This document shows, piece after piece, positions 14,178 through 57,748 of a DNA stretch of 64,000 bases (position 1 is the stretch's first letter; each line of letters starts with the position of its first letter). Source of the stretch: a virus; the IMG/VR virus record IMGVR_UViG_3300047476_000577, positions 40,247 through 104,246 of that record; one strand, given 5' to 3'. The translations under genes and the position numbers were made by a program. The notes below the pieces were generated by a model. It had not been told where the DNA came from, did no database searches, and was given only the letters and a program-made list of their open reading frames with translations.

Positions 14178-14408
14178 TTAACTGTAACGCAGTGTCCACA
14201 GCAGTTTTTCATTCAAATCTGCAAATTTTATACGAATGCCTGCATACTGTGGTCTTGCATCTTTCGGGTCCCACTCTAGGGTGTACGGCCCCGGGCACTT
14301 GAGTTGAAAGTTATGAGTGATAGCGTCTAGCGTGATGTCGTCTAACGGCTCGTACGCATAGTGTGACATTATTTCTGACAAGACTTTTCGGTACAGCATT
14401 AGCTCCAC
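14178..14408 (-). CDS. FxL[RK]W-tail small protein family member
   Basis: Ends KFADLNEKLLWTLRYS. Confidence 0.65.
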   Translation of the reverse strand: MELMLYRKVLSEIMSHYAYEPLDDITLDAITHNFQLKCPGPYTLEWDPKDARPQYAGIRIKFADLNEKLLWTLRYS

Positions 14409-14656
14409 CTCAATGCAAACATAGTAGCAACCTCTGGGTCTCTAAAGAAATAGATAGTCCTGTGCCCCGGTGTTAGTAAATCGTCGTCAGGATAGCACCA
14501 AGCATCGTAGTCATCATCTGCGTTCGGGCAATGGTCTCTTAGCCAGCAAGGTAGGTATACGATTTTATCGTAAAACTCTATAGGAGAACGGATTATAACT
14601 GGATGCCAGCTTTCGACAGTCTCGTACAAATGTCCTTCGTATTCTTTCATACCCAC
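14399..14656 (-). CDS. FxL[RK]W-tail family member
   Basis: Ends FFRDPEVATMFALRWS. Confidence 0.7.
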   Translation of the reverse strand: MGMKEYEGHLYETVESWHPVIIRSPIEFYDKIVYLPCWLRDHCPNADDDYDAWCYPDDDLLTPGHRTIYFFRDPEVATMFALRWS

Positions 14657-14904
14657 CTTAATATAAACTTAAATGCTGCCTCGTCGTTGTCAAACCAAAA
14701 CCTGCTGCCGGTCCACGCATAGTGGTCTTCTCCAATGTGTTCCCCGCACCACCTATGTACTTCGGGCCATTTCTTGTGACCTTCCTCGCTTAACAGCGCA
14801 CTGGGGTAACCTTTGCTATTAAAAGCGTGTCTCCAGTCATAGTCTTGCACTGGCTCAAACAGCAACTTTGCTTTGATACTAGCAACATACTCTTTTATAG
14901 TCAT
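14647..14904 (-). CDS. FxL[RK]W-tail family member (start revised to the ATG at 14904)
   Basis: WCGEH...FWFDNDEAAFKFILRWV; ATGA overlap with the upstream gene. Confidence 0.7.
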   Translation of the reverse strand: MTIKEYVASIKAKLLFEPVQDYDWRHAFNSKGYPSALLSEEGHKKWPEVHRWCGEHIGEDHYAWTGSRFWFDNDEAAFKFILRWV

Positions 14905-15410
14905 AACCAACGCAAAGTAAAGTATGCTGCATCTTCCTGACGTTTGAACCAAATTTGTCCGTCGGGCCAGCGACAATGGTACTCTACACCCGATTCATCT
15001 AACCAGTCTAGCATTAGCTGATGAAGCCCGCCTGATTCGTTAAACGATACTTTATACTGCCAAGCACTATAGTTGACTATGGGGTCAACTACAAACTCGG
15101 TAGTTAACGTCATTTCGTCAAAGTAAGCCACGCTCCAATCGGGCAATTCTGCTTGCAAACGCTGGCTAATTTTACGACCCCAATGACTAAAATGCTCAAC
15201 ATTAAAAGCATTATATATGGTTTTATCGCCTATGTCATATGCGTTGGAGTGATTGTCGTAGTGATCTGTCCATTTTAGTAGCTCATTAAACAAGTCATCG
15301 GAAATAGGGATTCTACTAGTATCCATCATTGTATAATCGTAAGCCCATACACCCGTACTCATATAGTCTGCACAAAGTTTGATGCACTTATTAAGATTTA
15401 ATTTGCCCAT
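14901..15410 (-). CDS. FxL[RK]W-tail family member with extra N-terminal domain
   Basis: Ends IWFKRQEDAAYFTLRWL. Confidence 0.7.
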   Translation of the reverse strand: MGKLNLNKCIKLCADYMSTGVWAYDYTMMDTSRIPISDDLFNELLKWTDHYDNHSNAYDIGDKTIYNAFNVEHFSHWGRKISQRLQAELPDWSVAYFDEMTLTTEFVVDPIVNYSAWQYKVSFNESGGLHQLMLDWLDESGVEYHCRWPDGQIWFKRQEDAAYFTLRWL

Positions 15411-19988: not shown

Positions 19989-20294
19989 TCAACTGAACTT
20001 CAATGCAAATTCAAATAGCAATTCATCGTCAGTGTCATCATTAAAGTCAACCCATTGGTCAACAATGATATTAGATACTCCGTCTGTTCGTTTTGGTTCT
20101 GCAAAACTGCATACTCCGCCCATAGCCCAACCGCTGCCGTGTATCCATTCATTGCCACCCGGCTTCCAGTTTTTACTAATAGGGCCTATGTTTGTACTAA
20201 GCCAGACTAGTATAGGCGTGTCTGTATATTTGAGCTTTCTGGAATTATTGTTCCAAGGCTCCCATACATTTCTATTGTACCTAACTCTTTTCAT
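19989..20294 (-). CDS. FxL[RK]W-tail family member
   Basis: WLSTNIGP...LLFEFALKFS. Confidence 0.65.
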   Translation of the reverse strand: MKRVRYNRNVWEPWNNNSRKLKYTDTPILVWLSTNIGPISKNWKPGGNEWIHGSGWAMGGVCSFAEPKRTDGVSNIIVDQWVDFNDDTDDELLFEFALKFS

Positions 20295-20533
20295 AAGTCA
20301 AGTAAAAATTGTTCTTCTGTAGTCAAGTTAAGTATAAGATTTATCTTACCTTCTTGCAGCCATCTGTTGATGGTTAATGATATGTATTCGGCTTCGTCGC
20401 AGTCGTTAACCTTTACACCTATGCGTTTAAATGTCATACCGTCTGGTCCTTTGACCCACGGGTTAACAACTGATATTAGTTTCTTTGGATCAGGTATTCG
20501 TACTATAGGTCGTATACTCATTTTCCTGCCCAC
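20291..20533 (-). CDS. Hypothetical protein (weak capsid-peptide resemblance)
   Basis: LISVVNPWVKGPDGMTF. Confidence 0.5.
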   Translation of the reverse strand: MGRKMSIRPIVRIPDPKKLISVVNPWVKGPDGMTFKRIGVKVNDCDEAEYISLTINRWLQEGKINLILNLTTEEQFLLDL

Positions 20534-20790
20534 CTTAATTTAAACATCACTGCATCTTCTGCAAGCTCGAATGCAACACTGTGGTGTAAGTTAACGTGAT
20601 TGCCAGTTAAGTTACTGTCCAGCCAAGTGTATATGTCAACTAGTTCAACAATGTTGGGCTCTTTTTTGTATTCTACTAAATGCCAGCCTTGGCTAACTAG
20701 TACCTTACTTAATACTTCTCGGTCGATTTCGTTTTTAATTTCTTCTGCAAGAATTTCTGCAAAATCTTGCGACACTGAATCACCGTCCAT
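20518..20790 (-). CDS. FxL[RK]W-tail protein with N-terminal gp23-like helix
   Basis: EILAEEIKNEIDREVL plus AVMFKLRWAGK. Confidence 0.7.
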   Translation of the reverse strand: MDGDSVSQDFAEILAEEIKNEIDREVLSKVLVSQGWHLVEYKKEPNIVELVDIYTWLDSNLTGNHVNLHHSVAFELAEDAVMFKLRWAGK

Positions 20791-20791
20791 A

Positions 20792-21019
20792 TTAGCTCCA
20801 CCTTAATAAAAATAGCAGCATATCAGATTCTTCTTTGAACTTGATCCAGCCACCGTGACTATCCCATCCGCTGTGCACGCCAGTATCCGGGTCTGTCCCA
20901 GGATGCCCAAATGTATCCCATAGCCAGCCGTATACACTAAGAAACTCTTTTCCTTGAGGACTATAATACCATTCCCACTTATAATCTCTGTCAGGCCTGT
21001 GCTTAAATTTTATGTCCAT
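20792..21019 (-). CDS. FxL[RK]W-tail family member
   Basis: WLWDTFG...MLLFLLRWS. Confidence 0.7.
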   Translation of the reverse strand: MDIKFKHRPDRDYKWEWYYSPQGKEFLSVYGWLWDTFGHPGTDPDTGVHSGWDSHGGWIKFKEESDMLLFLLRWS

Positions 21020-21209
21020 TACAATGTCCCCATTTTAGCGTAAACATTAGCGCATCTCGTTCTTCTAAGCAAACATATATGTATGCTTGTCCTATTTGCC
21101 ACAGGCCCCAGTTTGTTTCGTCTACGTAACCAGGGCAATGGTCATTGATCCACATAAGTTGATCGTGCCACGTAGTAGGACAAGTAATCTCAACACGATT
21201 CATAACCAC
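21003..21209 (-). CDS. FxL[RK]W-tail family member
   Basis: DALMFTLKWG. Confidence 0.7.
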   Translation of the reverse strand: MVMNRVEITCPTTWHDQLMWINDHCPGYVDETNWGLWQIGQAYIYVCLEERDALMFTLKWGHCNGHKI

Positions 21210-21472
21210 CGTAGCTTGAACATTACTGCTTCGTTGTCGTCTTTGATGCTAACAGTATACATAGGATCTCCGCTGTTAAAGCGATGCGTACAGTCTGCTG
21301 TTGGACAATTTGTCTCCATCCACATTTCAAACTCTCTGTCGTCTGCGGGATATACCCAGCAGGTCCAACTACGAGGCGGCACCATCGGCCATTGAGACCC
21401 GGGGTTGATTGGATCTACACCATTATGGAATTCCCAATGATGCACTATAGTTTTTCTCATCAAGCAGCCCAC
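21200..21472 (-). CDS. FxL[RK]W-tail family member
   Basis: WMETNCP...EAVMFKLRWL. Confidence 0.7.
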   Translation of the reverse strand: MGCLMRKTIVHHWEFHNGVDPINPGSQWPMVPPRSWTCWVYPADDREFEMWMETNCPTADCTHRFNSGDPMYTVSIKDDNEAVMFKLRWL

Positions 21473-21732
21473 CTTAATCTAAATAGCATAATACTTTCTT
21501 TACTGTCGAGCAACCACCTGTCATATGCAACTCTTTTACCGCATCCAGTTGTTTTTACCCAAGCGTCAATTTCTTCAGCTTGCTCGTCCGTTAGCTCAAC
21601 AAAAGAGTTCCATACCTTACTATACAGACCGTGATATGTTATGGCCTGTTTGACCCATATTTTCCTGCGTAACAGTTTAAATGTAAAACGACTCACGCCT
21701 TGCCCTTGCCGCCGTAGTTTAGTTTTTCCCAA
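21460..21732 (-). CDS. FxL[RK]W-tail family member
   Basis: IMLFRLRWAA. Confidence 0.7.
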   Translation of the reverse strand: MGKTKLRRQGQGVSRFTFKLLRRKIWVKQAITYHGLYSKVWNSFVELTDEQAEEIDAWVKTTGCGKRVAYDRWLLDSKESIMLFRLRWAA

Positions 21733-22151
21733 AACTCAAACTTGTGTTCTGCTTCTTCCCGCAACTTCTTTTCGTGCTCTGCAATACGGCGTGCCCTGCC
21801 TTCTTCCATTTTAGCAGTTTCTAATGTTTGTTGCACATCTGCAATAAAGCTAACAAGACTTGTAGTAGACAACCGGTTTATTTCTTTGTTCAAGTTATAA
21901 ATTTCAGTGTCCTTGTCGTCTATATCTCGTTTGTAATAGTCAATGTCATCTCTAAGTTTGCGGATATAGTCAGCAGGATACAAGTGTTCCCACTCGTATT
22001 CGAATGTACAGTCTACTGGATCCATTCCTGCTTCTTCTAACTCTACACGAATAGTATCATCGTTAATGATAGCAAGTAGGCGCCGAATGACAGGGTCAGT
22101 TGACTCTAAGTCAAGTTGGTTGATAAACTCTTTGTTGCTTAGTCCGAGCAT
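21693..22151 (-). CDS. Coiled-coil hypothetical protein
   Basis: Heptad-like charged C-terminal half. Confidence 0.6.
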   Translation of the reverse strand: MLGLSNKEFINQLDLESTDPVIRRLLAIINDDTIRVELEEAGMDPVDCTFEYEWEHLYPADYIRKLRDDIDYYKRDIDDKDTEIYNLNKEINRLSTTSLVSFIADVQQTLETAKMEEGRARRIAEHEKKLREEAEHKFEFWEKLNYGGKGKA

Positions 22152-22501
22152 TAGTGTTTCCCCCAGCGTAATACAAAGTTAAAATAATCTTCTTGGTCGC
22201 GAATAAGAATACTGTTTTCAAATTTGTGCCACCAACGACTCCACGCATCGGGGCGTTTGGGGTGCGGCCCGAATTGTTCTTCGCACCACTTGTCTACTGC
22301 AAAATAATCAGCAGGATCAAATTCTGCCTGATACCAGTTCCTGCTGAACTTGTATTTTGGTTCTTGCTGATTAAGTTTTATTTGCATTTCTTTAAGTATC
22401 TTATTTGCCAGGCGTTGAATCTCATCTAACAGTTGTTGGTCCAATGGCGGTATAGTTTGCCAGGCGTACATACTGTTAATGTCTAAATCTATGTGTTGCA
22501 T
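22151..22501 (-). CDS. FxL[RK]W-tail family member
   Basis: WCEEQFGP...YFNFVLRWG. Confidence 0.7.
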   Translation of the reverse strand: MQHIDLDINSMYAWQTIPPLDQQLLDEIQRLANKILKEMQIKLNQQEPKYKFSRNWYQAEFDPADYFAVDKWCEEQFGPHPKRPDAWSRWWHKFENSILIRDQEDYFNFVLRWGKH

Positions 22502-22719
22502 TATACACCTTGTGCAAGTTTAAACAAAAACATATCGTGCTCGTCTTTGAAGCAAAATGTAATATAGCAAGCATCGTATCCGCTGTACAATACCTTGCAG
22601 GATTCTTTTGGCATATTAATTTTGATCCAGTTACAGTAGTCATCAACTGTTGCAACTTTCTTACCATTTGTCTTGACAGATAGTTGATACGGCCAATATT
22701 TTTTGTTAAGCACTCGCAT
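22501..22719 (-). CDS. FxL[RK]W-tail family member
   Basis: FKDEHDMFLFKLAQ. Confidence 0.65.
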   Translation of the reverse strand: MRVLNKKYWPYQLSVKTNGKKVATVDDYCNWIKINMPKESCKVLYSGYDACYITFCFKDEHDMFLFKLAQGV

Positions 22720-22954
22720 TGCTATATCTCAATTTAAAAATTAAATATGCTTCTCGATCAAGTAATTCAAAGCCTGCTAAGTTGTCGCCTACATACCAAC
22801 AGCGAACGCCACTTTCCTTGAGTAGATCTATAGTTGATATTTTAGCATAGTTAGGATTAGTTTTGTATCGCTTAGTAACCAAAGCAATGAACTCATCACG
22901 AGCTTTGAACTGCTCGTATATGCTACAATTTTTTGGGATTAAACTTATTGCCAT
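22706..22954 (-). CDS. FxL[RK]W-tail family member
   Basis: AYLIFKLRYS. Confidence 0.65.
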   Translation of the reverse strand: MAISLIPKNCSIYEQFKARDEFIALVTKRYKTNPNYAKISTIDLLKESGVRCWYVGDNLAGFELLDREAYLIFKLRYSNASA

Positions 22955-23250
22955 CGCAGTAAAAACATTAATAAATCATCGTGGTCGCGAAACCAAAACG
23001 AACTGTTGTTAACAAACCACCTGTCTGACGAAGCAGGCCATTCATTGAGTGGGCGTTTTCCAAAAGTACTGTAGCACCAGTCTTCCAATTTCAACCAGTC
23101 ACGCTGTAATTCTTGTTTACTGACCCCGTACGGCACCCACCAGTTTGTACCGCTAATGTAACTTACATTAGCAACATAATACCTTGCACCGTTTAATCGT
23201 TTTTCTTCTGTAGTGAATGTTAAATTCATTAGCTCCACTTCAGCTTCCAT
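22945..23250 (-). CDS. FxL[RK]W-tail family member
   Basis: WCYSTFG...FWFRDHDDLLMFLLRWQ. Confidence 0.7.
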   Translation of the reverse strand: MEAEVELMNLTFTTEEKRLNGARYYVANVSYISGTNWWVPYGVSKQELQRDWLKLEDWCYSTFGKRPLNEWPASSDRWFVNNSSFWFRDHDDLLMFLLRWQ

Positions 23251-23489
23251 AACATAAAAGCCTCGGGCTCGACAACTTCGATTTGGTTGATTTTATAACC
23301 TGCTTGGGTACCTTTAATCTCAACTTCAAAGTCCAATTTAAGACCTGCTTCTTGTTCAAGATAATATTTAAAAGCACGAACGAGGTTAGCATTGCCAATG
23401 TTATATTGCCAGTTTGGATCCCAGGCATCGTAGCAGTTGTTTAGCTGATTTTTAATTTCTTTTTGATCAACGGTAATCATTGTGCCCAC
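23229..23489 (-). CDS. FxL[RK]W-tail family member
   Basis: AFMLWKLKWS. Confidence 0.65.
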   Translation of the reverse strand: MGTMITVDQKEIKNQLNNCYDAWDPNWQYNIGNANLVRAFKYYLEQEAGLKLDFEVEIKGTQAGYKINQIEVVEPEAFMLWKLKWS

Positions 23490-23665
23490 CTTAGTGCAAA
23501 TAGTAACGCATCTTCTTGTTTATCGAAATTAAATGTAACGTGTTGGATTTTATTAACTACTTCCCAAGTCCGGTTAACGAGATTCATATCGTGTTCAGCC
23601 GCCCGATCTGAGCGAGCAGTGCACTCTACTATGTTGTTACATTTAACAGTTACAGGATACATCAT
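23477..23665 (-). CDS. FxL[RK]W-tail family member
   Basis: FNFDKQEDALLFALRWAQ. Confidence 0.7.
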   Translation of the reverse strand: MMYPVTVKCNNIVECTARSDRAAEHDMNLVNRTWEVVNKIQHVTFNFDKQEDALLFALRWAQ

Positions 23666-23892
23666 ACGTACCTCAATTCAAACATCATTGCATCTTCTGC
23701 TTTTTCAAACCAAAAATCCAATCTAGTACCTTGACTGTGGATTTGATAACTATAGCTGCCGCTCCATTCTGTAATTTCGTCTGCCAGGTCTCTGCGATTT
23801 CCAATTAATTCCAATCTTGTTGTAGGCCAAATAGTATGACCCTCGGGCAAAAATGTAGCCACTCTAAAGTTATGATTCTCTTTAATTGGCAT
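23662..23892 (-). CDS. FxL[RK]W-tail family member
   Basis: FWFEKAEDAMMFELRYV. Confidence 0.7.
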   Translation of the reverse strand: MPIKENHNFRVATFLPEGHTIWPTTRLELIGNRRDLADEITEWSGSYSYQIHSQGTRLDFWFEKAEDAMMFELRYV

Positions 23893-24178
23893 CTGGCAAG
23901 CCCGGAAACTTTAATGCAAACATCAGCTTTGACTCTTCGCTGTCGAAGGTAATCAGCCTTGCTGGTGTTTTGTACTGGTCCCAATAGCCTTCTTCTCTTG
24001 CCTCAAACTCCCACATATTGACATTATACTTTTCTCGTATGTAGTCACCTAAGTGGCTTAGTTCCTTTGTCTTATTGAAGTTAAACTCGTCAAACAAAGT
24101 CGTCTGGCACTTGCCCCAATACTCGGGTGCATCTTCCCAGCGATATGTTAGCTTAACAGCAGTAAGAAATGTAGTCAT
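23882..24178 (-). CDS. FxL[RK]W-tail family member
   Basis: ITFDSEESKLMFALKFP. Confidence 0.65.
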   Translation of the reverse strand: MTTFLTAVKLTYRWEDAPEYWGKCQTTLFDEFNFNKTKELSHLGDYIREKYNVNMWEFEAREEGYWDQYKTPARLITFDSEESKLMFALKFPGLPDAN

Positions 24179-24229
24179 AAGAAAAGGCTATTTCACATAG
24201 CCTTATTATAATACATTTTGAATTATTGG

Positions 24230-24631
24230 TCAACTATAGAGCAGTTTCATTACCATAGCAGCTTCTTTGTGTTTATTTCTTATTTTTATAAGCACTCGGT
24301 CTTTAGCTGTCATTTCTTGCTCGTATCCGGGTGTAATCATAGTATCTGTAATAATATGTTTCCATTCCCAATCCCAACCTTGCTTGCCTATGTTTTTCTC
24401 TAACCAAGGGCGATAGTGATCATTTGGATCACTCGATTCAGCAGATACTTTCGACCCATCGGGGTCTTCGTGTAATACTACCCAACCAGTAGGCCACGGT
24501 AAAGTAATTTCAACACCGGGCACAGTAGCCCACCATAGAGCTTGTTTTAAGCCTGTTCTTTTATTTAATTCCCATTTAGCCATATCAATCTTATTCATTG
24601 GTCTCAAAAAGGCTGCGCCGTTAAAGCTCAT
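24230..24631 (-). CDS. FxL[RK]W-tail family member (divergent)
   Basis: WLEKNIGKQ...AAMVMKLLYS. Confidence 0.6.
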   Translation of the reverse strand: MSFNGAAFLRPMNKIDMAKWELNKRTGLKQALWWATVPGVEITLPWPTGWVVLHEDPDGSKVSAESSDPNDHYRPWLEKNIGKQGWDWEWKHIITDTMITPGYEQEMTAKDRVLIKIRNKHKEAAMVMKLLYS

Positions 24632-24868
24632 TTATTTGCCCCACACTAGCTCTAACAACATTAATAATTCGTCTCGAACCCAATATCTTGCTCTCATACG
24701 ATGGCCTTCAGTTTTCCACCAGTCTGGATTTTGTTCTTCAATCCAATCTCCGCATATATACCTTGTCTCTAATAGAGTCCACTTGATTCCATCGGAGTCT
24801 GTGTAAGGGTTGATATAGTTGCGGTCCGACTCTTTACGGAAGTTTCCTTCTTCTGCCCTCACGGCCAC
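24632..24868 (-). CDS. FxL[RK]W-tail family member (divergent)
   Basis: LLMLLELVWGK. Confidence 0.6.
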   Translation of the reverse strand: MAVRAEEGNFRKESDRNYINPYTDSDGIKWTLLETRYICGDWIEEQNPDWWKTEGHRMRARYWVRDELLMLLELVWGK

Positions 24869-25224
24869 CTCAATACGAACAGCATAGCATCTTCTTTACG
24901 CTTAAATGCAAACTTGTTGCCATAGTTGCGCCAGTAGCGACCGTGAGAAATATTTTCCCAGCACCAGCGTTCCATATCAAGAATAGGTATTAATCCTGAA
25001 GGAGTATGTTGATATGGCCAGTAAGTTTTATTATGCCCTTGAAACAGCCAATCATTCTTATAAGAAAAAAAGTCGCCTGTATTACCCATTGGTTGTACTC
25101 CTGCAATAGAATGTGCCATCAAGTTAGGCAATGATTTTCTAAGCATCGAAATTAAAACTTGTTGAGCAGCTTGTGTTACTGACAGGGCCGTTTTACTATC
25201 ATATATTTCCGTCATTAAGACCAC
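24859..25224 (-). CDS. FxL[RK]W-tail protein fused to a gp23 Gol-like peptide
   Basis: LISMLRKSLPNLMAHSIAGVQPMGNTG plus FAFKRKEDAMLFVLRWP. Confidence 0.75.
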   Translation of the reverse strand: MVLMTEIYDSKTALSVTQAAQQVLISMLRKSLPNLMAHSIAGVQPMGNTGDFFSYKNDWLFQGHNKTYWPYQHTPSGLIPILDMERWCWENISHGRYWRNYGNKFAFKRKEDAMLFVLRWP

Positions 25225-25439
25225 CTCATAACAAATAGCATTAAGTCTTTCCTGTCTTCAAAGCACACTTCTCCGTAAACAATACAATCCTTCCATCGCT
25301 CACCGGGAGGCCCGAAAGAATCGTTGCACCACTGTTTCATAGCCACTACTTCATCCACTTTATGCGGCGTGGGAAAAGCAGCAACAGCCCATCCTTCATT
25401 CCAATATTCATCGTAGGTATGTATTACCATCACGCCCAC
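25215..25439 (-). CDS. FxL[RK]W-tail family member
   Basis: WCNDSFGP...FEDRKDLMLFVMRWS. Confidence 0.7.
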   Translation of the reverse strand: MGVMVIHTYDEYWNEGWAVAAFPTPHKVDEVVAMKQWCNDSFGPPGERWKDCIVYGEVCFEDRKDLMLFVMRWS

Positions 25440-25831
25440 CTTAGCTTAAAGTTGAAAGCATCAAGTTCGTCTTTAAATCCAACAAAGTAGTAGTCCCCAC
25501 CGCCGATTTCATTTACAGTCCACTCGCCCCAATAGTCTTTTATTACCCTGAGGGCATCAAATCTAAACTTGCCTTGACAGTTTTCTTCGCACCATTCTAC
25601 AATTTCTCTGCTACCATCATATGCCATATCCCACCAGTAGATTTGATGAGTGCGATTCTCAAAACAGTGTAAGTAAGGGTAGCCGTGGAAATAGTCCTTG
25701 ACTCTAGTAGCCCTGATATTATAGTCAGGATCATAGTATCTATCGTACTGTGCTTGTGTTTTAAAGCCTTCCTTATGTAACATCCGTTGATGTTTCCAGG
25801 CCTTAAACTTTGCTAATAGATTAGATATCAC
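25430..25831 (-). CDS. FxL[RK]W-tail family member
   Basis: WCEENC...FKDELDAFNFKLRWA. Confidence 0.7.
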   Translation of the reverse strand: MISNLLAKFKAWKHQRMLHKEGFKTQAQYDRYYDPDYNIRATRVKDYFHGYPYLHCFENRTHQIYWWDMAYDGSREIVEWCEENCQGKFRFDALRVIKDYWGEWTVNEIGGGDYYFVGFKDELDAFNFKLRWA

Positions 25832-26063
25832 TGCCGCCCCAGGTTAACTTAAACATAACAGCGGCATCATACCACTCGAATTGGACAACATCGTAGTCTC
25901 GTCTATAGACTTCTTTCCACTCTGTGTGCCAACGACGAAAGTATTTCCCTTCGTCATCAAAAGCCTCGCACCACTTGTACATTTCTGTAGTGCATTTTGA
26001 AATCTTTATTCTGTATCTAAATACAGGGCGATTGTTTCCGCCTTCTGAATAAAAATATTCCAT
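25821..26063 (-). CDS. FxL[RK]W-tail family member
   Basis: WCEAF...AAVMFKLTWG. Confidence 0.7.
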   Translation of the reverse strand: MEYFYSEGGNNRPVFRYRIKISKCTTEMYKWCEAFDDEGKYFRRWHTEWKEVYRRDYDVVQFEWYDAAVMFKLTWGGSDI

Positions 26064-51006: not shown

Positions 51007-51234
51007 TTAACGACGTTTACGCCAAGTGTAATCACTACCGTCAGGTAGCTTTCCATTAGTAACTGCATCAACACCGGGCTTTCCAATGCTGTTAGGATTT
51101 TCACTTACCATTGTGACAAAAGTTTTACCTGCTGTTCGCAGTTCTTGACACCAGTTAAGTGCTTCCGTTAAGTTGCTAAAGTCACTTGTATAAGGTTCGT
51201 TATTGTACTGGTTAGTCCAATAAACTTTATACAT
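51007..51234 (-). CDS. Small conserved phage protein
   Basis: FVTMVSENPNSIGKPGVDAV..GKLPDG..YTWRKRR. Confidence 0.7.
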   Translation of the reverse strand: MYKVYWTNQYNNEPYTSDFSNLTEALNWCQELRTAGKTFVTMVSENPNSIGKPGVDAVTNGKLPDGSDYTWRKRR

Positions 51235-52230
51235 AGTACTCTTTCAAAAATAAATTAAAGGTTGGATTAGCAGATTGCAGCCTGTTGCACCAACTTGCTT
51301 ACTCGCCATCCTGAGGCAGAATGTTTTGCAGCGTCTACCTGCTAACACCTATAAGCAACTCCCGCTAGACCTCCGAAGGAGTTTCAGTTCATACCTGAAT
51401 GCTTTAAACTTGTTAAACCATTGTAAAACATACTAGCGGGCATATCTAGGTTGCCGCTTATCGCACATCCGTCCTAGTACTGACAGTAGGCTAGTATGCT
51501 TTAAAATGATTTGTTTAGTGGGCTGTCGCTCACGTTCTCTTACTCTTCAACAGCGTGACCACATCGTACAGTACCGAAGAACGATCCGTCTGTACTAGGC
51601 TCCCTCGCTAAAGGCATCACTAAACAAAAACTTACTATTCTAAAACACACTAGCAAGCATCGCCGATGTATTTCTACACCTCCTAGTCTGTGCTGTCAAA
51701 CTATAACCTTCCCGGGTGTTATAGAGTCTCTTCTCTAGAGTGTTTTAGAATAGTGTCCAGTAGTTAGCGTTTCAACACAACCGCTTACAACCTTCAAGGT
51801 GATCAAATCCTATCCAATCGTTCTTTGCTCTTGTAATACTTTTGTCTTTATCTAGCGTCCGGAGCACCGGATAGTGAGTAGCACCGATAAAAACTTGATT
51901 ACAGTCGCTTCGCGGCGAGTATCCAACTTTTGCTCACACGATGCTGGACGCACCGTATAGTATATCCGCAAACATACTATTCTGAAACACACTGTAGCTG
52001 GACTTTCACCAATCTTATCAGTATACAAATCTTACCAATGTGTTTTAGAATAGTGGCTATCGGAGGCTTGCCATCGCCCTTAGGTTATACCGATATTACT
52101 TGTTGTCGCTTATGCTTTCGCATTGTCTGGGAGACTCAACAAGACCTTCTTCCACTCCCACGCTTCGTCTGTAACGCATCATTCGAAAGGATCCAGTCAT
52201 CTCTACTCGTTACAGAAACTGGTTACATTA

Positions 52231-52307
52231 TGGAGGTCGGGGTAGGATTTCAACCTACGAATCATCCGGGTTGCAACCGGAGCCATTAAGCACTCTGGTA
52301 CCCGACC
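52231..52307 (-). tRNA. tRNA-Cys(GCA)
   Basis: U73, CCA; variant T-loop TTGAAAT. Confidence 0.85.
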
Positions 52308-52313
52308 ATAATA

Positions 52314-52390
52314 TGGCGCACCGTAGGGGACTCGAACCCCTGGCCTTCTGCGTGACAGGCAGACGATCTAACCAACTGATCTAACGGTGC
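52314..52390 (-). tRNA. tRNA-Asp(GUC)
   Basis: Cloverleaf, CCA. Confidence 0.93.
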
Positions 52391-52455
52391 AAAATAAAAA
52401 GCCCTGAGTTACTGCAAACAGGCTGGACCTGAGTGGCTCGCTTTCGGGCGGATGT

Positions 52456-52830
52456 TTATCGCACACTTTGCGCTCTTGCTGTAATTACGCCTTCCATATC
52501 ATTCTTTACAATAACGTTTTGATAAGTGTCTACAAAACCACTTGCGTGGTCAACTACTCTGTTATCGCATTCGTGATAGGTTCTAATGCGTTCATTACCT
52601 GCCAAGTAACGCTCAGTGTCTTTGTGGTAAAAATTGTGAACTCTAGACAAGCAAGTGATATAAGCACTGCGCTTATTATCTTCTCTACTACGACTGTTAG
52701 TTCCGTTAGCAGTTATCCCGGTAGGCTCGTGTATGCAACGGCAACAGTTTTGATGTTTGTTGCGATGTTGCCCACCTTTGCCAGTACCTGAAAACCACTC
52801 GTATCTAAACTGATCTTCGGTAATTTTCAT
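52456..52830 (-). CDS. Stand-alone GGQ peptidyl-tRNA hydrolase domain (class I release-factor-like)
   Basis: SGTGKGGQHRNK, HEPTGI, RSREDNK, ERIRTY..RVVDH; no stop-codon recognition domain. Confidence 0.85.
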   Translation of the reverse strand: MKITEDQFRYEWFSGTGKGGQHRNKHQNCCRCIHEPTGITANGTNSRSREDNKRSAYITCLSRVHNFYHKDTERYLAGNERIRTYHECDNRVVDHASGFVDTYQNVIVKNDMEGVITARAQSVR

Positions 52831-52844
52831 AACTGCCTTTATGT

Positions 52845-52919
52845 TGGTACTCGGTAGGGGAATCGAACCCCTCTTCCATCCGTGAAAGGGATGTGTCCTA
52901 GCCGATAGACGAACCGAGC
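52845..52919 (-). tRNA. tRNA-Glu(UUC)
   Basis: Cloverleaf, CCA. Confidence 0.93.
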
Positions 52920-52932
52920 AAGGTTAAATTGT

Positions 52933-53016
52933 TGGTGCCCCAGGGGAGACTCGAACTCCCACGGCTCTCGCCAGTGGCTTCTAAGACCACCGTGTCTACC
53001 ATTCCACCACCAGGGC
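52933..53016 (-). tRNA. tRNA-Leu(UAG)
   Basis: Long variable arm, CCA. Confidence 0.93.
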
Positions 53017-53017
53017 A

Positions 53018-53653
53018 TTATTTGTTGTGTGCTTTATTTAGCACAAGATCTAAAAATTCTTTACTAACAGGCTTATGATATTGAAACCATATGTGATACC
53101 TAAATTTACCAAACGGTATGCGTACACTGTGTTCTGTTTGTGCTACTTCAACTAGTGCTGGTATACCATTTGCTGGTTGATTTATTTTATATTCACCTGT
53201 TGCATTTTTAAAGTACCAATCTACGTCATATGCAGAGTTTAAGGCAATGTGTACTCTGTAAGGAGTATGAGGATCTGTGTGATATGACAAATCTACTGCC
53301 TTAAACTCTGCACTACCGCCTATAAATTTTGATATTCGAACACGTGGCTTATCTAAGCCTATGTAACTGCTAATTTTTTCTTCTACTGTGCGTATATAAG
53401 AAGATTCTAAACACTTAGGATAATACACTAAATCTGTATCGGCTTCTCCAGTAGGGAAGCGCCTAACTCCATATTCATCTAGTTTTGTAATAGACCTGTA
53501 TTGACTAAAATCGCATACATCTTTTTTTGATTCTGTTAGCGTAGTTGTTATTGCAGTTCCTCCCATAGGGGGTTTAACAATAACTTCTAATTCATTGCGT
53601 ATACGATCAATGTCAAATTTCAAGTCTACTAATGGTATGTAAAAATCGTACAT
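53018..53653 (-). CDS. 2OG-Fe(II) oxygenase-like protein
   Basis: YHTD, RVHIAL, HSV, RYHIW. Confidence 0.65.
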   Translation of the reverse strand: MYDFYIPLVDLKFDIDRIRNELEVIVKPPMGGTAITTTLTESKKDVCDFSQYRSITKLDEYGVRRFPTGEADTDLVYYPKCLESSYIRTVEEKISSYIGLDKPRVRISKFIGGSAEFKAVDLSYHTDPHTPYRVHIALNSAYDVDWYFKNATGEYKINQPANGIPALVEVAQTEHSVRIPFGKFRYHIWFQYHKPVSKEFLDLVLNKAHNK

Positions 53654-53663
53654 ACATTATTTA

Positions 53664-53738
53664 TGGTACCACTAGTAGGAATCGAACCTACATCTAAGAC
53701 TTAGGAGGTCCTTGTTCTATCCATTGAACTATAGCGGC
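53664..53738 (-). tRNA. tRNA-Arg(CCU)
   Basis: Cloverleaf, CCA. Confidence 0.9.
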
Positions 53739-53757
53739 AGCAAAGTTAAATACACTA

Positions 53758-54891
53758 ATGAATACAGATGACTTAATCAACAGCAAAAAATGTAGCATAC
53801 CTTGGTTGCATACTGAAATAAATTTACAGAACAACAGTGTTATGCCTTGCTGTAAGTACACAAAATCTATCGGTACTCCCGACAACTTTATTCAAGTATG
53901 GAGTAACGACCATTATAAAAAGCTAAGAGCAGATACTGCTCAAGGCAAGTTACACGCAGGTTGTGTTAAGTGCTATGTACCATCTAACGAATTTTCGTAT
54001 AAAGACTTAAAAAATCTTGCATACAAAAATAAATTAGTAGCTGACGTAGATAGCTTTAAATTCCCTCAGGCCTTCTGTATAAGTTTAACAAATACGTGCA
54101 CTCTAGCTTGCAGGATGTGTCATCCTAACTCAAGTTCTAAACTAGCAGAACTATCCAATAAAAGCGCCTTCTTAAAGCCTTTTTATAATCAAAATGCTAT
54201 GCAAAATACCTTTAACTTATCAAAGCTAAAAGGAGCGTTTGTTGATGCAAGACGTATTACTATTACAGGCGGCGAACCTTTAATTGATTCTACTTGCAGT
54301 GACTTAATTGCGTTAGTAGCAACCGAATCTCCACACTTAGAGGAAGTAATATTTTCAAGTAGTCTTGTAACTTACAACAAGAAGTTAATCGAACAACTAC
54401 GACAACTATCTGCCAAAGTAAGAATAAACATAAGCATAGACGGGCCAATTAACGTACACGAATACATACGTGTTGGATTCGATTGGCAACGTATGCTAGA
54501 AAACATACACAGTCTTAAAGACTTTGTAGAGTTTGGAATCAACTCTACTGTTAGTTTACTAAACGTAGGTTATATTCCAGAACTGCTAGATGCTATAAAG
54601 AATATTAGCAACGAGACTGGAATAACACTAAAGTATCTAATGACTAGCCCTGTGTTAGAAAAACATCTGCACGTAGGCAATTTACCGACACACATCAAAC
54701 AACAATATTTGAAAAAGCTAGAGCTAGCAAGTCCTAGTATACCCGGTAGCGATAAACTAATTGCCACGGCTAAGAATTTACTAGCACTTGAAAGAAACGA
54801 GTTAGAATTGACTAAACAATTTTTAGCCGAATTCGATAGTATTACAAATACAGATTACAGGCTTGTGTATCCAGAATTTGCAAACTTGTAA
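53758..54891 (+). CDS. Radical SAM protein with N-terminal SPASM/Twitch-like domain
   Basis: CSIPW..PCC..CVKC, then CTLACRMC, TGGEP, SIDG. Confidence 0.88.
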   Translation: MNTDDLINSKKCSIPWLHTEINLQNNSVMPCCKYTKSIGTPDNFIQVWSNDHYKKLRADTAQGKLHAGCVKCYVPSNEFSYKDLKNLAYKNKLVADVDSFKFPQAFCISLTNTCTLACRMCHPNSSSKLAELSNKSAFLKPFYNQNAMQNTFNLSKLKGAFVDARRITITGGEPLIDSTCSDLIALVATESPHLEEVIFSSSLVTYNKKLIEQLRQLSAKVRINISIDGPINVHEYIRVGFDWQRMLENIHSLKDFVEFGINSTVSLLNVGYIPELLDAIKNISNETGITLKYLMTSPVLEKHLHVGNLPTHIKQQYLKKLELASPSIPGSDKLIATAKNLLALERNELELTKQFLAEFDSITNTDYRLVYPEFANL

Positions 54892-54892
54892 T

Positions 54893-54967
54893 TGGTCCGG
54901 CGTAGTGGAATCGAACCACTATAATCACTTTAGAAGAATGATGTCCTATCCGTTGAACGAACGCCAG
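54893..54967 (-). tRNA. tRNA-Arg(UCU)
   Basis: Cloverleaf, CCA. Confidence 0.9.
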
Positions 54968-54975
54968 TAATTTTA

Positions 54976-55058
54976 AACAGGATAGTTGGTGCCATTTTTA
55001 TTTTAGTCTGACAGCGAACAGACAGCCATTATGTAGTAATTGCTGAACCTATCCTAAA
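54976..55058 (-). ncRNA. CAGCA-handle RNA 4
   Basis: GGATAG-GTTCAGCAA ... CTATCC-TG; cargo hairpin GTCTG/CAGAC. Confidence 0.75.
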
Positions 55059-55061
55059 AAC

Positions 55062-55137
55062 TGGAGCGGGTAGCGAGATTCGAACTCGTCTCTTGAGGTT
55101 TGGAAGACCGCCGTGCAACCGTAAACACTTTACCCGC
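55062..55137 (-). tRNA. tRNA-Gly(UCC)
   Basis: Cloverleaf, U73, CCA. Confidence 0.9.
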
Positions 55138-55150
55138 AAAATACATTGTC

Positions 55151-55225
55151 TGGTGGAGGATAGGAGATTCGAACTCCTGACTCAAGCGTGCAAGGCTAGT
55201 GTGTTCCCAACTATACCAATCCCCC
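55151..55225 (-). tRNA. tRNA-Ala(UGC)
   Basis: G3-U70, CCA. Confidence 0.9.
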
Positions 55226-55364
55226 GAAATCATCCAACTGTTACCTTATGCTCTCTCCGTTGGCGATTGAGCAGCCGACATTCTTAAAGTCTTCTCGGAA
55301 CTGACTAAAATATGTTAGACGACATTTCAGCTCTAATTGCTTGGTGTGGGACCTAACATAAACC

Positions 55365-55438
55365 TGGTGCCCCGAGAGAGAATCGAACTCCCGTCCTCGG
55401 ATTACAAAACCGATGTTCTACCATTTAACTACCGGGGC
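55365..55438 (-). tRNA. tRNA-Thr(UGU)
   Basis: Cloverleaf, CCA. Confidence 0.9.
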
Positions 55439-55443
55439 AAATT

Positions 55444-55519
55444 TGGTGCTGAATGTCGGATTCGAACTGACGACCTACCGCTTACAAGGCGGTTGCTCTA
55501 CCAACTGAGCTAATTCAGC
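55444..55519 (-). tRNA. tRNA-Thr(UGU)
   Basis: Cloverleaf, CCA. Confidence 0.95.
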
Positions 55520-55554
55520 ATTGACATTTTATTTATACATACACCAAAATAAAT

Positions 55555-56115
55555 ATGTATATGTTATACAAAAAACTATCATTCGAGCAGCTTCGCTTTA
55601 CAGAAGAAGATCGAATTTACTTTACTGATAAATTTAGTAATAGTTCTAATTCTATAGGATATGGAACTACTGTGCATAAGAGTAAAGTGAATAGTAGTTT
55701 TTTAAATTACATATATGACTTAATCCCTTATTGTAAAGATACCTTTATGATCATAAAAGGAATTAAAGATTCCGACGATATTAACATACCCGGACGTCAT
55801 ATTCATTCCGATGATCGATTATCTGCTATTAATATTCCTTTGATTAATTGCAAGGAAGGAGCAGACACTGTTTTCTATAAACCTGAAACTCTGAAGAATA
55901 TTAGTTTTCCTAATCCAACTAACTCTACTATTTTCTTAAAACAAGAAAATGTTCTGCCTTTAGAAATAGGAAGATTCACTTTAACAATGGACAGTGCATA
56001 TCTTCTAAATACTAGTATACCTCATTGCAAAATACAAACCTATAATGAATATAGGATGTTACTTAGTATTAGTATAGATTTATCGTTTCAAGAAGCAACT
56101 AATTACTTCGAGTAA
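55555..56115 (+). CDS. Cupin/2OG-Fe(II) oxygenase-like protein
   Basis: IHSD, AINIPL, TSIPH, RMLLSI. Confidence 0.7.
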   Translation: MYMLYKKLSFEQLRFTEEDRIYFTDKFSNSSNSIGYGTTVHKSKVNSSFLNYIYDLIPYCKDTFMIIKGIKDSDDINIPGRHIHSDDRLSAINIPLINCKEGADTVFYKPETLKNISFPNPTNSTIFLKQENVLPLEIGRFTLTMDSAYLLNTSIPHCKIQTYNEYRMLLSISIDLSFQEATNYFE

Positions 56116-56117
56116 GT

Positions 56118-56192
56118 TGGCTCCGGAGGCAGGGATCGAACCTACGACCAATTGATTAACAGTCAACTGCACTACCGCTGTGCTACTCCGGA
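56118..56192 (-). tRNA. tRNA-Asn(GUU)
   Basis: Cloverleaf, CCA. Confidence 0.93.
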
Positions 56193-56273
56193 ATATTTGT
56201 TCTGCTATGTTATCGGAAAAGGGCTTACATCGTATTGCTACAAATGCCTTTTACGTCACACGGCAGGGGTATG

Positions 56274-56348
56274 TGGTACCTGGACACGGTTTCGAACCGC
56301 GGACCCTCTCCGTGTAAAGGAGACGCTCTACCCCTGAGCTATCCAGGC
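56274..56348 (-). tRNA. tRNA-Val(UAC)
   Basis: Cloverleaf, CCA. Confidence 0.93.
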
Positions 56349-56356
56349 GACTTATT

Positions 56357-56446
56357 TGGCGGAGCGTTAGGGAGTCGAACCCTATCAGCTGCTTTCACAA
56401 CTGTACGGATTAGCAATCCGCTGCCTTACCGTCCGGCCCACGCTCC
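56357..56446 (-). tRNA. tRNA-Ser(GCU)
   Basis: Long variable arm, CCA. Confidence 0.92.
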
Positions 56447-56468
56447 TTGCTAATACTTTATTTATGTT

Positions 56469-56553
56469 TGGTGCTCCGACCCGGACTCGAACCGGGATGG
56501 CTTTCGCCGACAGATTTTAAGTCTGTTGTGTCTACCTATTCCACCATCGGAGC
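56469..56553 (-). tRNA. tRNA-Leu(UAA)
   Basis: Long variable arm, CCA. Confidence 0.93.
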
Positions 56554-56567
56554 GTAAACTTATTTAC

Positions 56568-56690
56568 AACTGGTTCGCATTTTTATCCTATCCATTAGAC
56601 GACAGTGGTGACCAACTCCACCGCTGGGATTCGAACCCAGATCTTCTTTGTTCAAAAAAGTTAAAATATAAATTGCTGAAACGAACCGAG
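56568..56690 (-). ncRNA. CAGCA-handle RNA 5: permuted tRNA (YrlA-like)
   Basis: GGTTCG/CGAACC handle; T-arm CTGGG-TTCGAAT-CCCAG, looped acceptor CGGTGG/CCACTG, D-arm. Confidence 0.8.
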
Positions 56691-56699
56691 GTCAAAAAC

Positions 56700-56760
56700 A
56701 ACAGGATGCTTATTTTTCAATTAACAGTTGAATTATTAAATTTGCTGAACGCATCCTAAA
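56700..56760 (-). ncRNA. CAGCA-handle RNA 6 with Asn-GUU anticodon stem-loop
   Basis: GGATGC/GCATCC handle; cargo TTCAA-CTGTTAA-TTGAA. Confidence 0.8.
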
Positions 56761-56763
56761 ACT

Positions 56764-56848
56764 TGGTGGAGCCGGTTGGACTTGAACCAACAATGCCAGG
56801 GGCGGCTGATTTACAGTCAGCTGGGGTTACCAATTTTCCTACAACTCC
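56764..56848 (-). tRNA. tRNA-Tyr(GUA)
   Basis: Cloverleaf with variable arm, CCA. Confidence 0.92.
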
Positions 56849-56855
56849 AAAACGT

Positions 56856-56997
56856 TGGTGTAGCGTTTGCGAATCGAACGCAAACAATCGCGGATTTCTC
56901 GCCAGGTAACGTTACCTCCTGGCACCGTGCGTTATTCTGAAGTAATTACTCTTCTCATTACACACGCCAACAACCGTGTAAGTCCATTACACGCCAC
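56856..56997 (-). ncRNA. 142-nt tRNA-like RNA with G3-U70 acceptor and CCA
   Basis: Acceptor GTGGCGT/ACGCTAC-A-CCA, T-arm TTGCG-TTCGATT-CGCAA; no canonical D or anticodon arm. Confidence 0.7.
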
Positions 56998-57401
56998 AAA
57001 ACTTTAGACTACTCGACCCGTTCATAACTGCGACCAAGCAGCCTGGGGACGGATGTTTCATCACGGTGGAATAACATTCTGCTGGTTAGGCGTCCTGCTT
57101 CTTCGACCTTTATATAAAAATACACTAGCCGACCCTGGGATTTTAACCCAGAATTCATATTAGTTTTGCACGAGTTTTACGCTCGGTCAACTAGTGTATC
57201 ACAAATGAAATAGTGTCACAGTGTTCTTGTTACGTTCCACCTAGGCTGAACAGCATTTGCAACTGAACGAACGGATATTCTGAGTACCCATTTTTAACAG
57301 CTATGATCCACCATATTGAAGTATACTACTTGCTATGCCGGCCACTATCACTTACCGCGGAGTTGTGCGCCTTCCAGCTCCTTATGCAATACACTTCAAT
57401 A

Positions 57402-57712: not shown

Positions 57713-57748
57713 TTGTTAAGTTAGTTAATATTAACTAACTAAGCTTCT

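What the first reader, a model, noticed from the sequence alone, without database searches (positions are those of the whole stretch)
25075..25158. T4 Gol-like capsid peptide fused to an FxLRW domain: candidate immune decoy or EF-Tu binder
Seen: VLISMLRKSLPNLMAHSIAGVQPMGNTG within a 121-aa protein. Known: the T4 gp23 Gol peptide (recalled as AVMGMVRRAIPNLIAFDICGVQPMNSPTG) binds EF-Tu and triggers the Lit abortive-infection protease. Inference: essentially just the immune-sensed capsid segment has been lifted into a small non-structural protein, possibly as a non-activating decoy or competitor.
Basis: partly seen in the sequence, partly recalled or inferred. Interest (0 to 1): 0.8.

Follow-up and report, generated by a model that had tools for sequence, protein, structure and literature searches.

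The report
Capsid-arm (Gol-like) peptide on small phage protein
A giant freshwater phage encodes a 118-residue protein whose front end copies the most conserved stretch of a T4-type capsid protein, joined to a small domain of unknown role, and many uncultured phages carry the same design, so the copied stretch probably works as a docking peptide.

Summary
Window 24859..25215 (-) encodes a 118-aa protein. Residues about 2-50 are homologous to the N-terminal arm of T4-type major capsid proteins. A low-confidence linker follows, then a 58-aa alpha/beta domain shared by about 19 tandem "FxLRW" paralogues.

This is not a one-off. Of 150 listed cluster representatives (50% identity), 97 carry the same capsid segment. 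In 92 of those 97 it starts within the first 25 residues. Related 231-374 kb phages have a true capsid gene elsewhere in the genome plus one such small protein. Some relatives, and weakly this window at 20518..20790, carry a second capsid segment on the same domain.

No cultured phage showed the fusion in the searches run. The function is untested. My best reading is a trans-acting mimic of the capsid arm. I rank the candidate partners as capsid-assembly partners, then EF-Tu, then capsid-sensing immunity.

The decoy idea is neither shown nor excluded. The scan noted this stretch before only in overlapping windows of this same genome, not on other DNA.

The parts
24859..25215 (-). Coding sequence of the 118-aa protein, including the stop codon at 24859-24861. 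An alternative GTG start at 25224 would give 121 aa.
   Evidence: Public gene calls give the 118-aa form (P0002).
25063..25212 (-). N-terminal module, residues 2-51. It is a copy of the major-capsid-protein N-terminal arm and corresponds to about residues 76-126 of T4 gp23.
   Evidence: It is predicted as a helix over residues 7-37 with moderate confidence.
25075..25158 (-). It is the core that equals T4 gp23 94-121 and ends in the ..GVQPM motif.
25036..25086 (-). Linker, residues 44-60. It is low-confidence or disordered and variable in length and sequence among homologues.
24862..25035 (-). C-terminal alpha/beta domain of the 'FxLRW' family, residues 61-118, with a strand-helix-strand-strand-helix order.
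   Evidence: Family HMM E 6.7e-19. pLDDT is 81-90.
25213..25227 (-). Translational coupling signal. GAGGTGG lies inside the Arg-Trp codons of the upstream gene, and TAATG is a stop/start overlap.
20518..20790 (-). Second array member, whose first 30 residues or so resemble the capsid spine helix. This is a weak 'type B' copy; the match lies at 20692-20775.
   Evidence: E 7.6e-4; E 2e-4; E 7.1e-3
19989..26063 (-). Main tandem array of FxLRW-family small genes that holds the target. A further block of the family lies at 14399-15410.

Best explanation
The gene encodes a modular accessory protein with three parts: a copied piece of a T4-type major capsid protein, a flexible linker, and a small alpha/beta 'FxLRW' domain. 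The copied piece is the N-terminal arm, whose core is the Gol region. I read the copied arm as a trans-acting docking peptide: a molecular mimic that brings the small domain to whatever normally binds that arm.

Shown here: the homology, the conserved boundaries, the N-terminal position, the residue-level conservation, the modular exchange and the size of the family.

Inferred: that the peptide binds in trans, and what its partner is. I rank capsid-assembly partners first. These are neighbouring capsid subunits or the scaffold inside the prohead. The protein would then be recruited to heads, or would interfere with head assembly, either the phage's own or that of a co-infecting T4-type phage.

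The confidence given (0.3) is for this specific partner. I hold the general claim, a selected trans-acting mimic of the capsid arm, at about 0.6.
For: (1) The capsid segment is highly conserved across 106 small proteins that otherwise share about 17% mean column identity. Counts (of 106, except Pro23 of 103 and Arg26 and Ile25 of 105): Pro30 106, Ala34 104, Met43 99, Pro42 99, Gln41 98, Val40 95, Arg26 92, Ile37 92, Gly39 89, Ile25 88. The residues at 26, 30, 34, 37 and 39-43 are the same ones shared by T4 gp23 and the giant-phage capsid proteins.

(2) In 92 of the 97 representatives that carry the segment, it starts within the first 25 residues. A low-confidence linker follows it. This is the layout of a tethered peptide.

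(3) A second capsid segment (strand plus spine helix) is fused to the same domain family. Against the G005 capsid protein it gives E 5e-10, 43% identity over 60 residues. It occurs in G003, G005, G010 and the L022 record, and weakly in this window. Two different capsid interface elements point to the capsid rather than to one host factor.

(4) Three representatives (174-182 aa) keep the whole capsid N-terminus, including the propeptide region (my capsid HMM, positions 4-95), ahead of the same tail.

(5) In T4, gp23 residues 66-105 are flexible in the unexpanded head and probably contact the scaffolding core. They later form the arm that ties capsomers together (PMC9546572, passages read).

(6) Among 3726 small ORFs from all loci held, every gene that matched a capsid HMM at E < 0.01 belongs to the FxLRW family. 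That is 16 distinct genes; one further row is a copy cut off by a locus end.
Against: - No binding, expression-timing or virion data exist.
- The gene lies in an array of small genes far from the capsid gene. In G004 the array is at 158-168 kb and the capsid gene at 363 kb.
- The distribution is patchy. G012 is 91% complete and has 12 FxLRW matches but no capsid-segment ORF. One close lineage (L005, P0008-P0014) carries an unrelated N-terminal module. An essential assembly factor would not be expected to behave this way.
- The only trans partner shown experimentally for this isolated peptide is EF-Tu.
- In the closest pair (window versus L004) the 24 core codons show 7 non-synonymous and 3 synonymous differences, dN/dS 0.60, against 0.07 for the rest of the gene.
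- The Pfam score is 0.2 bits under the cut-off.
- This phage's own capsid gene is not on the 104-kb record, so the copy could not be compared with its source.
Confidence: 0.3

Rival explanations
1. EF-Tu docking. The peptide does what the T4 Gol peptide does: it binds domains II-III of the host elongation factor Tu. This would tether the FxLRW domain to the translation machinery, as a host-takeover or translation-tuning function.
For: The isolated 29-residue Gol region of gp23 binds EF-Tu. It is described as the most conserved part of gp23, with a suggestion that gp23 of all T4 relatives binds the host EF-Tu (review PMC3014915, passages read). The family's conserved block coincides with that region: profile positions 13-46 align to gp23 93-129. 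The residues kept in the small proteins are those shared by very distant capsid lineages, which fits a universally conserved partner. The window is rich in translation genes, with 42 tRNA genes on the same strand.
Against: It does not explain the second capsid segment (strand plus spine helix) on the same domain. It also does not explain the forms that keep the capsid propeptide region. The residues critical for Gol activity could not be checked because the primary paper is not held. The tRNA block lies 24 kb away. No complex prediction was possible with these tools.
Confidence: 0.25
2. Counter-defence by mimicry. The free-standing copies of the most conserved capsid segments would bind, blunt or pre-empt host sensors that recognise the capsid protein. 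Examples are Lit with EF-Tu, Avs7/Dsr1, CapRel and capsid-triggered TIR systems.
For: Several defence systems are triggered by major capsid proteins, and two of them involve EF-Tu (passages read). Both copied segments are among the best conserved parts of the capsid protein, which are the parts a sensor would be expected to read. The patchy distribution, the module swapping and the location in a diversifying array of small genes are typical of arms-race genes.
Against: There is no direct evidence. A Gol-type peptide alone is an activator of Lit, so a copy must have lost the activating surface, yet the conserved residues are retained. Competing for EF-Tu would need very high protein levels. No capsid-fragment decoy turned up in the literature searches run; those cover only the held library.
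Confidence: 0.2
3. A by-product of recombination with no function of its own. A piece of the capsid gene was captured during shuffling of the array and is drifting.
For: The N-terminal module is exchangeable and is absent in some relatives. In the closest pair the core shows a relatively high dN/dS of 0.60, from only 10 differences.
Against: The segment is kept in 97 of 150 listed representatives that are no more than 50% identical to one another, and some positions are invariant or nearly so. In distant pairs the core dN is 0.17-0.27, against 0.23-0.41 for the rest of the protein. The position and boundaries are constant.
Confidence: 0.07

Closest known systems
Gol region of T4 gp23 (trigger of the e14 Lit protease through EF-Tu)
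   Same: It is homologous sequence. The core aligns without gaps to gp23 94-117, with 12 of 24 residues identical. The family profile aligns to gp23 93-129.
   Different: Here the stretch stands at the N-terminus of a 118-aa protein and not inside a 521-aa capsid protein. EF-Tu binding and Lit activation are untested.
True T4-type major capsid proteins (Pfam PF07068), including those of related giant phages and their cultured relatives (Vibrio phage 2.275.O, Sinorhizobium phage Phosso, Pseudomonas phage PA5oct)
   Same: They are the source of the segment. The relatives' capsid proteins (389-392 aa) carry the same block.
   Different: The small protein matches only model positions 3-32 of 376. 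It has none of the HK97-fold body. Its C-terminal domain is unrelated to the capsid protein (hhalign probability 0.09).
Capsid-targeting sequences of T4 internal proteins and cargo-loading peptides of encapsulins (named from my own knowledge; no call)
   Same: The layout is the same: a short terminal peptide, a flexible linker and a small cargo domain.
   Different: Those peptides are not copies of the shell protein itself. No cleavage site, packaging or virion presence was tested here.
T4 gp24, the vertex paralogue of gp23
   Same: It is a capsid-gene duplicate within a phage genome.
   Different: gp24 is a full-length shell protein. Here only 35-65 residues are copied and are joined to an unrelated domain.
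Phage mimic and anti-sensor proteins such as DSAD1, which blocks DSR2 recognition of the tail tube (abstract seen in the listing)
   Same: A possible logic: a small phage protein that interferes with recognition of a structural protein.
   Different: DSAD1 is not described as a copy of the sensed protein. No interaction is known for the protein studied here.

Membership tests
T4-type major capsid protein (Pfam PF07068 Gp23) | Whole-protein score at or above the curated cut-off | tested here: not met
   The score is 24.2 bits against a cut-off of 24.4. The match is real but partial.
T4-type major capsid protein (Pfam PF07068 Gp23) | Full HK97-type body covering most of the model | tested here: not met
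   Only model positions 3-32 of 376 are matched, and the protein is 118 aa long. The C-terminal domain is unrelated to capsid proteins.
Gol peptide (functional definition) | Sequence homologous to gp23 94-122 | tested here: met
Gol peptide (functional definition) | Binds EF-Tu domains II-III and enables Lit to cleave EF-Tu | not testable with these tools
   No complex prediction or assay is available here. The property is taken from review PMC3014915.
'FxLRW' small-protein family of this phage clade (uncharacterised; no Pfam or PHROG model was hit) | C-terminal domain matches the family profile and ends in the F-x-L-R-W tail | tested here: met
   The family HMM gives E 6.7e-19 and the tail is ..FVLRWP. 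Of the other seven members tested, none hit a PHROG and six hit no Pfam family; the seventh had one weak, sub-threshold Pfam hit.
'FxLRW' small-protein family of this phage clade | Member of the co-oriented, translationally coupled tandem array | tested here: met
Internal head proteins or capsid-targeted cargo | Presence in proheads or virions, and processing by the prohead protease | not testable with these tools
   No cultured member was found. A cleavage motif was not tested systematically.
Anti-defence decoy or mimic | Binds an immune sensor, or its co-factor, and lowers defence | not testable with these tools
   This needs experiments or multimer modelling.

The most novel reading that the evidence does not exclude
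The Gol region of T4-type capsid proteins is an autonomous, transferable interaction module. Uncultured giant phages deploy free-standing copies of it, and of a second conserved capsid segment, on a common carrier domain. The copies would hijack EF-Tu or blind capsid-sensing immunity. If so, the long-noted extreme conservation of this capsid stretch would reflect a trans interaction and not only capsid architecture.
Probability: 0.25. Interest if true: 0.85.

Novelty: new variant of a known kind. Interest (0 to 1): 0.65.

Why it matters
Reviewers have noted that the Gol stretch is the most conserved part of gp23, and have suggested that it binds EF-Tu in all hosts. Why it is so conserved remains open. 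Here the same stretch is kept, residue for residue, in at least 97 diverged clusters of small proteins that lack the rest of the capsid fold. It therefore very probably acts on a partner in trans.

This gives a simple handle on the question: a 118-aa soluble protein that can be tested for binding to EF-Tu, capsid, scaffold or immune sensors. It also defines a large, unnamed family of giant-phage accessory proteins. And it shows that pieces of a structural gene can be reused as modules.

Tried and rejected
1. Is the FxLRW domain a shrunken capsid protein? MAFFT placed its strand-helix under a capsid strand-helix, but profile-profile comparison gave probability 0.09. Rejected.

2. Is the array a general library of fragments of large proteins? 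I ran BLASTP of 105 array-region ORFs against all ORFs of 180 aa or more in G000 and G004. The only fragment-type hit was the G004 member against its capsid protein. The other rows were one paralogue pair and three weak hits at E 0.004-0.03. Rejected within those two genomes.

3. This phage's own capsid gene. It is not on the 104-kb record and not on the records of the closer relatives G006-G010. So I could not compare the copy with its source.

4. Covariation of the copy with the genome's own capsid protein. Only three genomes hold both, and their capsid cores are identical over the 24 residues. Uninformative. I also looked at eight further capsid-bearing records and found no small copy.

5. 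Fold of the C-domain. The best Z against 48,161 PDB chains was 4.9. Foldseek against the PDB gave nothing at E <= 0.001. BFVD gave only uncharacterised phage proteins, best E 3.3e-3, including two rows from Agrobacterium phage Atu_ph07. No function can be read from the fold.

6. Cultured relatives of the fusion.
- megablast: no match.
- tblastn of the whole protein: capsid genes only; 0 of 1853 records cover 80% or more of the query.
- tblastn of the C-terminal 67 residues: two weak hits, E 0.2-0.4.
- tblastn of P0145: 0 of 122 records cover 80% or more.
- The one non-capsid-annotated top hit (phage CMSTMSU) is a capsid gene split into pieces in an unverified record.

7. Expression timing. Sigma-70-like sites: 40 found against 38.2 expected. 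The T4 late motif TATAAATA: 6 found against 6.5 expected. Neither is informative.

8. Transcription. Contigs from RNA libraries cover 24958-25141 and other parts of the region. The tool warns that DNA can be present in such libraries, so transcription is not shown.

9. Literature. The primary Gol/EF-Tu paper (PubMed 10801848) and one preprint are not held, so the critical Gol residues could not be compared. Searches found no description of capsid-fragment small proteins. Those searches cover only the held library, and supplements were not opened.

The IMG/VR relatives of P0121 turned out to be true capsid genes.

11. The ESM Atlas gave only unnamed viral clusters, scores 0.89-0.90. One of them has PF07068 on 13% of its members.

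Full report
THE OBSERVATION

The minus strand of window 24859..25224 holds an open frame of 121 codons.

The likelier start is the ATG at 25215-25213. It overlaps the TAA stop of the upstream gene (TAATG). It lies five bases after GAGGTGG, which is formed by the Arg-Trp codons of that gene's tail. Public gene calls give the same 118-aa protein (P0002).

The record that holds the window is a 104,246-base viral contig. Its estimated completeness is 29% and its G+C content is 41%, so it is a fragment of a genome of roughly 350 kb.

IS THE RESEMBLANCE REAL?

Yes. The evidence:
- Pfam Gp23 matches residues 19-48 at E 2.6e-5. The score of 24.2 bits is 0.2 under the curated cut-off.
- PHROG 138 (major head protein) matches at E 1.9e-6.
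- tblastn against 50,697 phage records finds 1853 records, one place each. All 40 listed rows lie on capsid genes.
- In Cronobacter phage VP8 the match is to capsid residues 79-149.
- Smith-Waterman scores with 500 shuffles: z 15.8 (T4 gp23), z 20.0 (VP8), and z 7.9-9.0 (three giant-phage capsid proteins). No shuffle reached the observed score.
In the 24-residue core, 12 of 24 residues are identical.
- A plain BLASTP against the G004 capsid protein missed the segment. I record that as a negative result.

The similarity runs from about residue 2 to residue 50 of the small protein. It is therefore more than the Gol core.

THE REST OF THE PROTEIN AND THE ARRAY

The C-terminal 58 residues belong to a family of small proteins that end in ..F-x-L-R-W. 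A profile built from the window's members finds 19 members in this record and 36 in the complete 374-kb relative G004. The target scores E 6.7e-19.

Most members are 60-100 aa long, so the domain is the whole protein. Longer members carry N-terminal extensions. Of the other seven members tested, none hit a PHROG and six hit no Pfam family; the seventh had one weak, sub-threshold Pfam hit.

AlphaFold2 with 106 homologues gives mean pLDDT 74. It predicts one helix over residues 7-37 (pLDDT about 71-73 for residues 11-30). Residues 38-60 are a low-confidence stretch. The C-terminal domain is a confident strand-helix-strand-strand-helix unit with pLDDT 81-90. A shallower alignment gave the same layout.

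Fold searches found nothing informative:
- Best Z 4.9 among 48,161 PDB chains.
- No Foldseek PDB match at E <= 0.001.
- Only uncharacterised phage proteins in BFVD.

The C-domain is not a reduced capsid protein (hhalign probability 0.09).

RELATIVES

Twenty-two related loci were found in IMG/VR. I examined five large records (G001-G005, 231-374 kb).
- Three hold a true capsid gene of 389-392 aa, and a fourth (G003) holds its C-terminal end cut off by the contig end.
- All five also hold a small FxLRW-family ORF with the capsid-arm segment, far from the capsid gene.

Counting G000 and G006-G010, 9 of 11 records examined carry such a 'type A' gene. The two without one are fragments, 22-24% complete.

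A different capsid segment, a strand plus the long spine helix, is fused to the same domain in G003, G005, G010 and the L022 record. Against the G005 capsid protein it gives E 5e-10, 43% identity over 60 residues. The window's ORF 20518..20790 is a weaker, helix-only version (E 7.6e-4, 2e-4 and 7.1e-3).

I also scored a capsid HMM against 3726 small ORFs from all loci held. Every gene with E < 0.01 belongs to the FxLRW family: 16 distinct genes, 11 of type A and 5 of type B, plus one row that is a copy cut off by a locus end. No fragment of any other large protein was found in the arrays of G000 and G004.

BREADTH

A profile of 12 type-A proteins was searched against 1.84 billion cluster representatives. 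It gave 695 proteins at E <= 0.001 and 70 at E <= 1e-10.

Of the 150 listed:
- 97 match the capsid HMM at E < 1e-3.
- 92 of those also match the family C-domain HMM.
- In 92 of the 97 the segment starts within the first 25 residues.
- The matched range is nearly constant, with a median of HMM positions 57-92.
- Three proteins of 174-182 aa keep the whole capsid N-terminus, propeptide region included (HMM 4-95), before the same tail.
- Two listed proteins show the opposite order of modules.

The profile of 106 small proteins hits solved T4 gp23 chains at E about 1e-8 over gp23 93-129.

Conservation inside the segment is striking. The counts are of 106, except Pro23 (of 103) and Arg26 and Ile25 (of 105):
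- Pro30 106, Ala34 104, Met43 99, Pro42 99, Gln41 98, Val40 95.
- Arg26 92, Ile37 92, Gly39 89, Ile25 88, Pro23 87.

The residues at 26, 30, 34, 37 and 39-43 are the same residues in T4 gp23 and in the giant-phage capsid proteins. Pro23 follows the giant-phage type.

No cultured phage showed the fusion in the searches run. The capsid proteins of the clade are 65-70% identical to those of Vibrio phage 2.275.O, Sinorhizobium phage Phosso, Pseudomonas phage PA5oct and Erwinia giant phages.

EVOLUTION

The N-terminal module is exchangeable. A close lineage (L005, P0008-P0014) has a nearly identical C-terminal part but an unrelated N-terminus. DNA homology begins only after the linker.

In G003, G004 and G005 the orthologue of the window's C-domain subtype lacks the segment, while another array member carries it.

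G012 (91% complete) has 12 family matches but no capsid-segment ORF.

Between distant pairs the core has dN 0.17-0.27, against 0.23-0.41 for the rest of the protein. In the closest pair (window versus L004) the core shows 7 non-synonymous and 3 synonymous differences. Its dS is 0.23, against 1.34 downstream. That may reflect a recent exchange of the 5' module or small numbers.

The phage sequence occurs in freshwater and aquatic metagenomes. Fourteen rows hold at least half of the sampled words, and one of them may be the source sample.

WHAT IS KNOWN

I read passages only of the following papers.
- A review states that a 29-residue region of gp23 defines Gol. It binds EF-Tu domains II-III and so allows Lit to cut EF-Tu. 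The review says it is the most conserved part of gp23, with a suggestion that gp23 of all T4 relatives binds EF-Tu (PMC3014915).
- The T4 head structures show that gp23 residues 66-105 are disordered in the unexpanded head and probably contact the scaffolding core. They later form the arm and 'N-fist' that tie capsomers together (PMC9546572).
- Capsid proteins trigger several other defences, and Avs7 even incorporates EF-Tu (bioRxiv 10.64898/2026.01.04.697583; review PMC13728456).

MECHANISM

The same residues are conserved with and without the rest of the capsid fold. The segment therefore most probably contacts something in trans.

I rank capsid-assembly partners first (0.3). The reasons are:
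- two different capsid interface elements are displayed on the same carrier domain;
- some forms keep the propeptide region;
- the layout of peptide, linker and small domain is that of a targeting peptide.

EF-Tu docking (0.25) is the only partner shown experimentally for the isolated peptide. It also fits the translation-rich window, with 42 tRNA genes. It leaves the second segment unexplained.

Mimicry against capsid sensing (0.2) fits the patchy, modular, arms-race-like distribution. It has no direct support, and a faithful Gol copy should activate Lit rather than block it.

A functionless by-product (0.07) is unlikely given the conservation.

None of these readings could be tested here. 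Complex prediction, binding assays and virion data are missing.

NOVELTY AND LIMITS

The protein is not a member of the capsid family in the structural sense. It is a member of an unnamed FxLRW family. The design, a capsid-arm peptide on a small carrier domain, was not found in the literature searches run or among cultured phages. Those searches cover only the held library, and supplements were closed.

I file it as a new variant of a known kind: reuse of a protein segment as a mimic or targeting module. It has a real chance of being more than that. The phage's own capsid gene, the host and the time of expression remain unknown.

Noticed in passing
window 24632-24861: Contigs from two RNA-library runs (X15, X16) join 24632 to 24861 and skip 228 bases, so they lack almost exactly one array gene (ORF 24632..24868). 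This looks like a presence/absence polymorphism of a single array member among strains.
   Followed up: no
window 25213-25227, and other gene junctions in the array: The Arg-Trp codons of the family tail (AGG TGG) form the Shine-Dalgarno sequence of the next gene, and the stop and start codons overlap (TAATG). I checked this at one junction only.
   Followed up: partly
window 24859-25260 versus L004 and L005: The 5' module of the gene is almost free of synonymous change between the window and L004 (dS 0.23, against 1.34 downstream). In L005 it is replaced by unrelated sequence. This suggests cassette-like exchange of N-terminal modules.
   Followed up: partly
window 20518-20790; L034:1516-1887; L037:1297-1767; L022:1772-2047: A second kind of capsid fragment, a strand plus the spine helix, is fused to the same FxLRW domain. 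It is clear in G003, G005 and G010. In the window it is helix-only and weak.
   Followed up: yes
proteins P0084, P0106, P0121: These small proteins of 174-182 aa keep the whole capsid N-terminus, propeptide region included, ahead of an FxLRW-type tail.
   Followed up: partly
proteins P0151, P0153: These show the reverse order: an FxLRW-type domain precedes the capsid-arm segment. They could be true fusions or read-through of two neighbouring genes.
   Followed up: no
G012 (record of L072): This related phage record is 91% complete and has 12 FxLRW-family matches and a capsid gene, but no capsid-fragment ORF. The fragment-bearing member is therefore accessory.
   Followed up: partly
window 24184-24233 (-): In the only sizeable gap of the array there is a near-consensus sigma-70-like site (TTGACC, 17 bases, TATAAT), directly followed by a hairpin with a T-run. 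Overall, such sites are not enriched in the region.
   Followed up: no
window 49063-63494 (-): There are 42 tRNA genes on the same strand as the array, one of them with an odd two-base anticodon call at 57973-58044.
   Followed up: no
L062 (Escherichia phage CMSTMSU, MH494197.1 284560-285732): The capsid gene of this 'UNVERIFIED_ORG' record is annotated as three consecutive pieces. This is probably due to frameshifts in the assembly.
   Followed up: no
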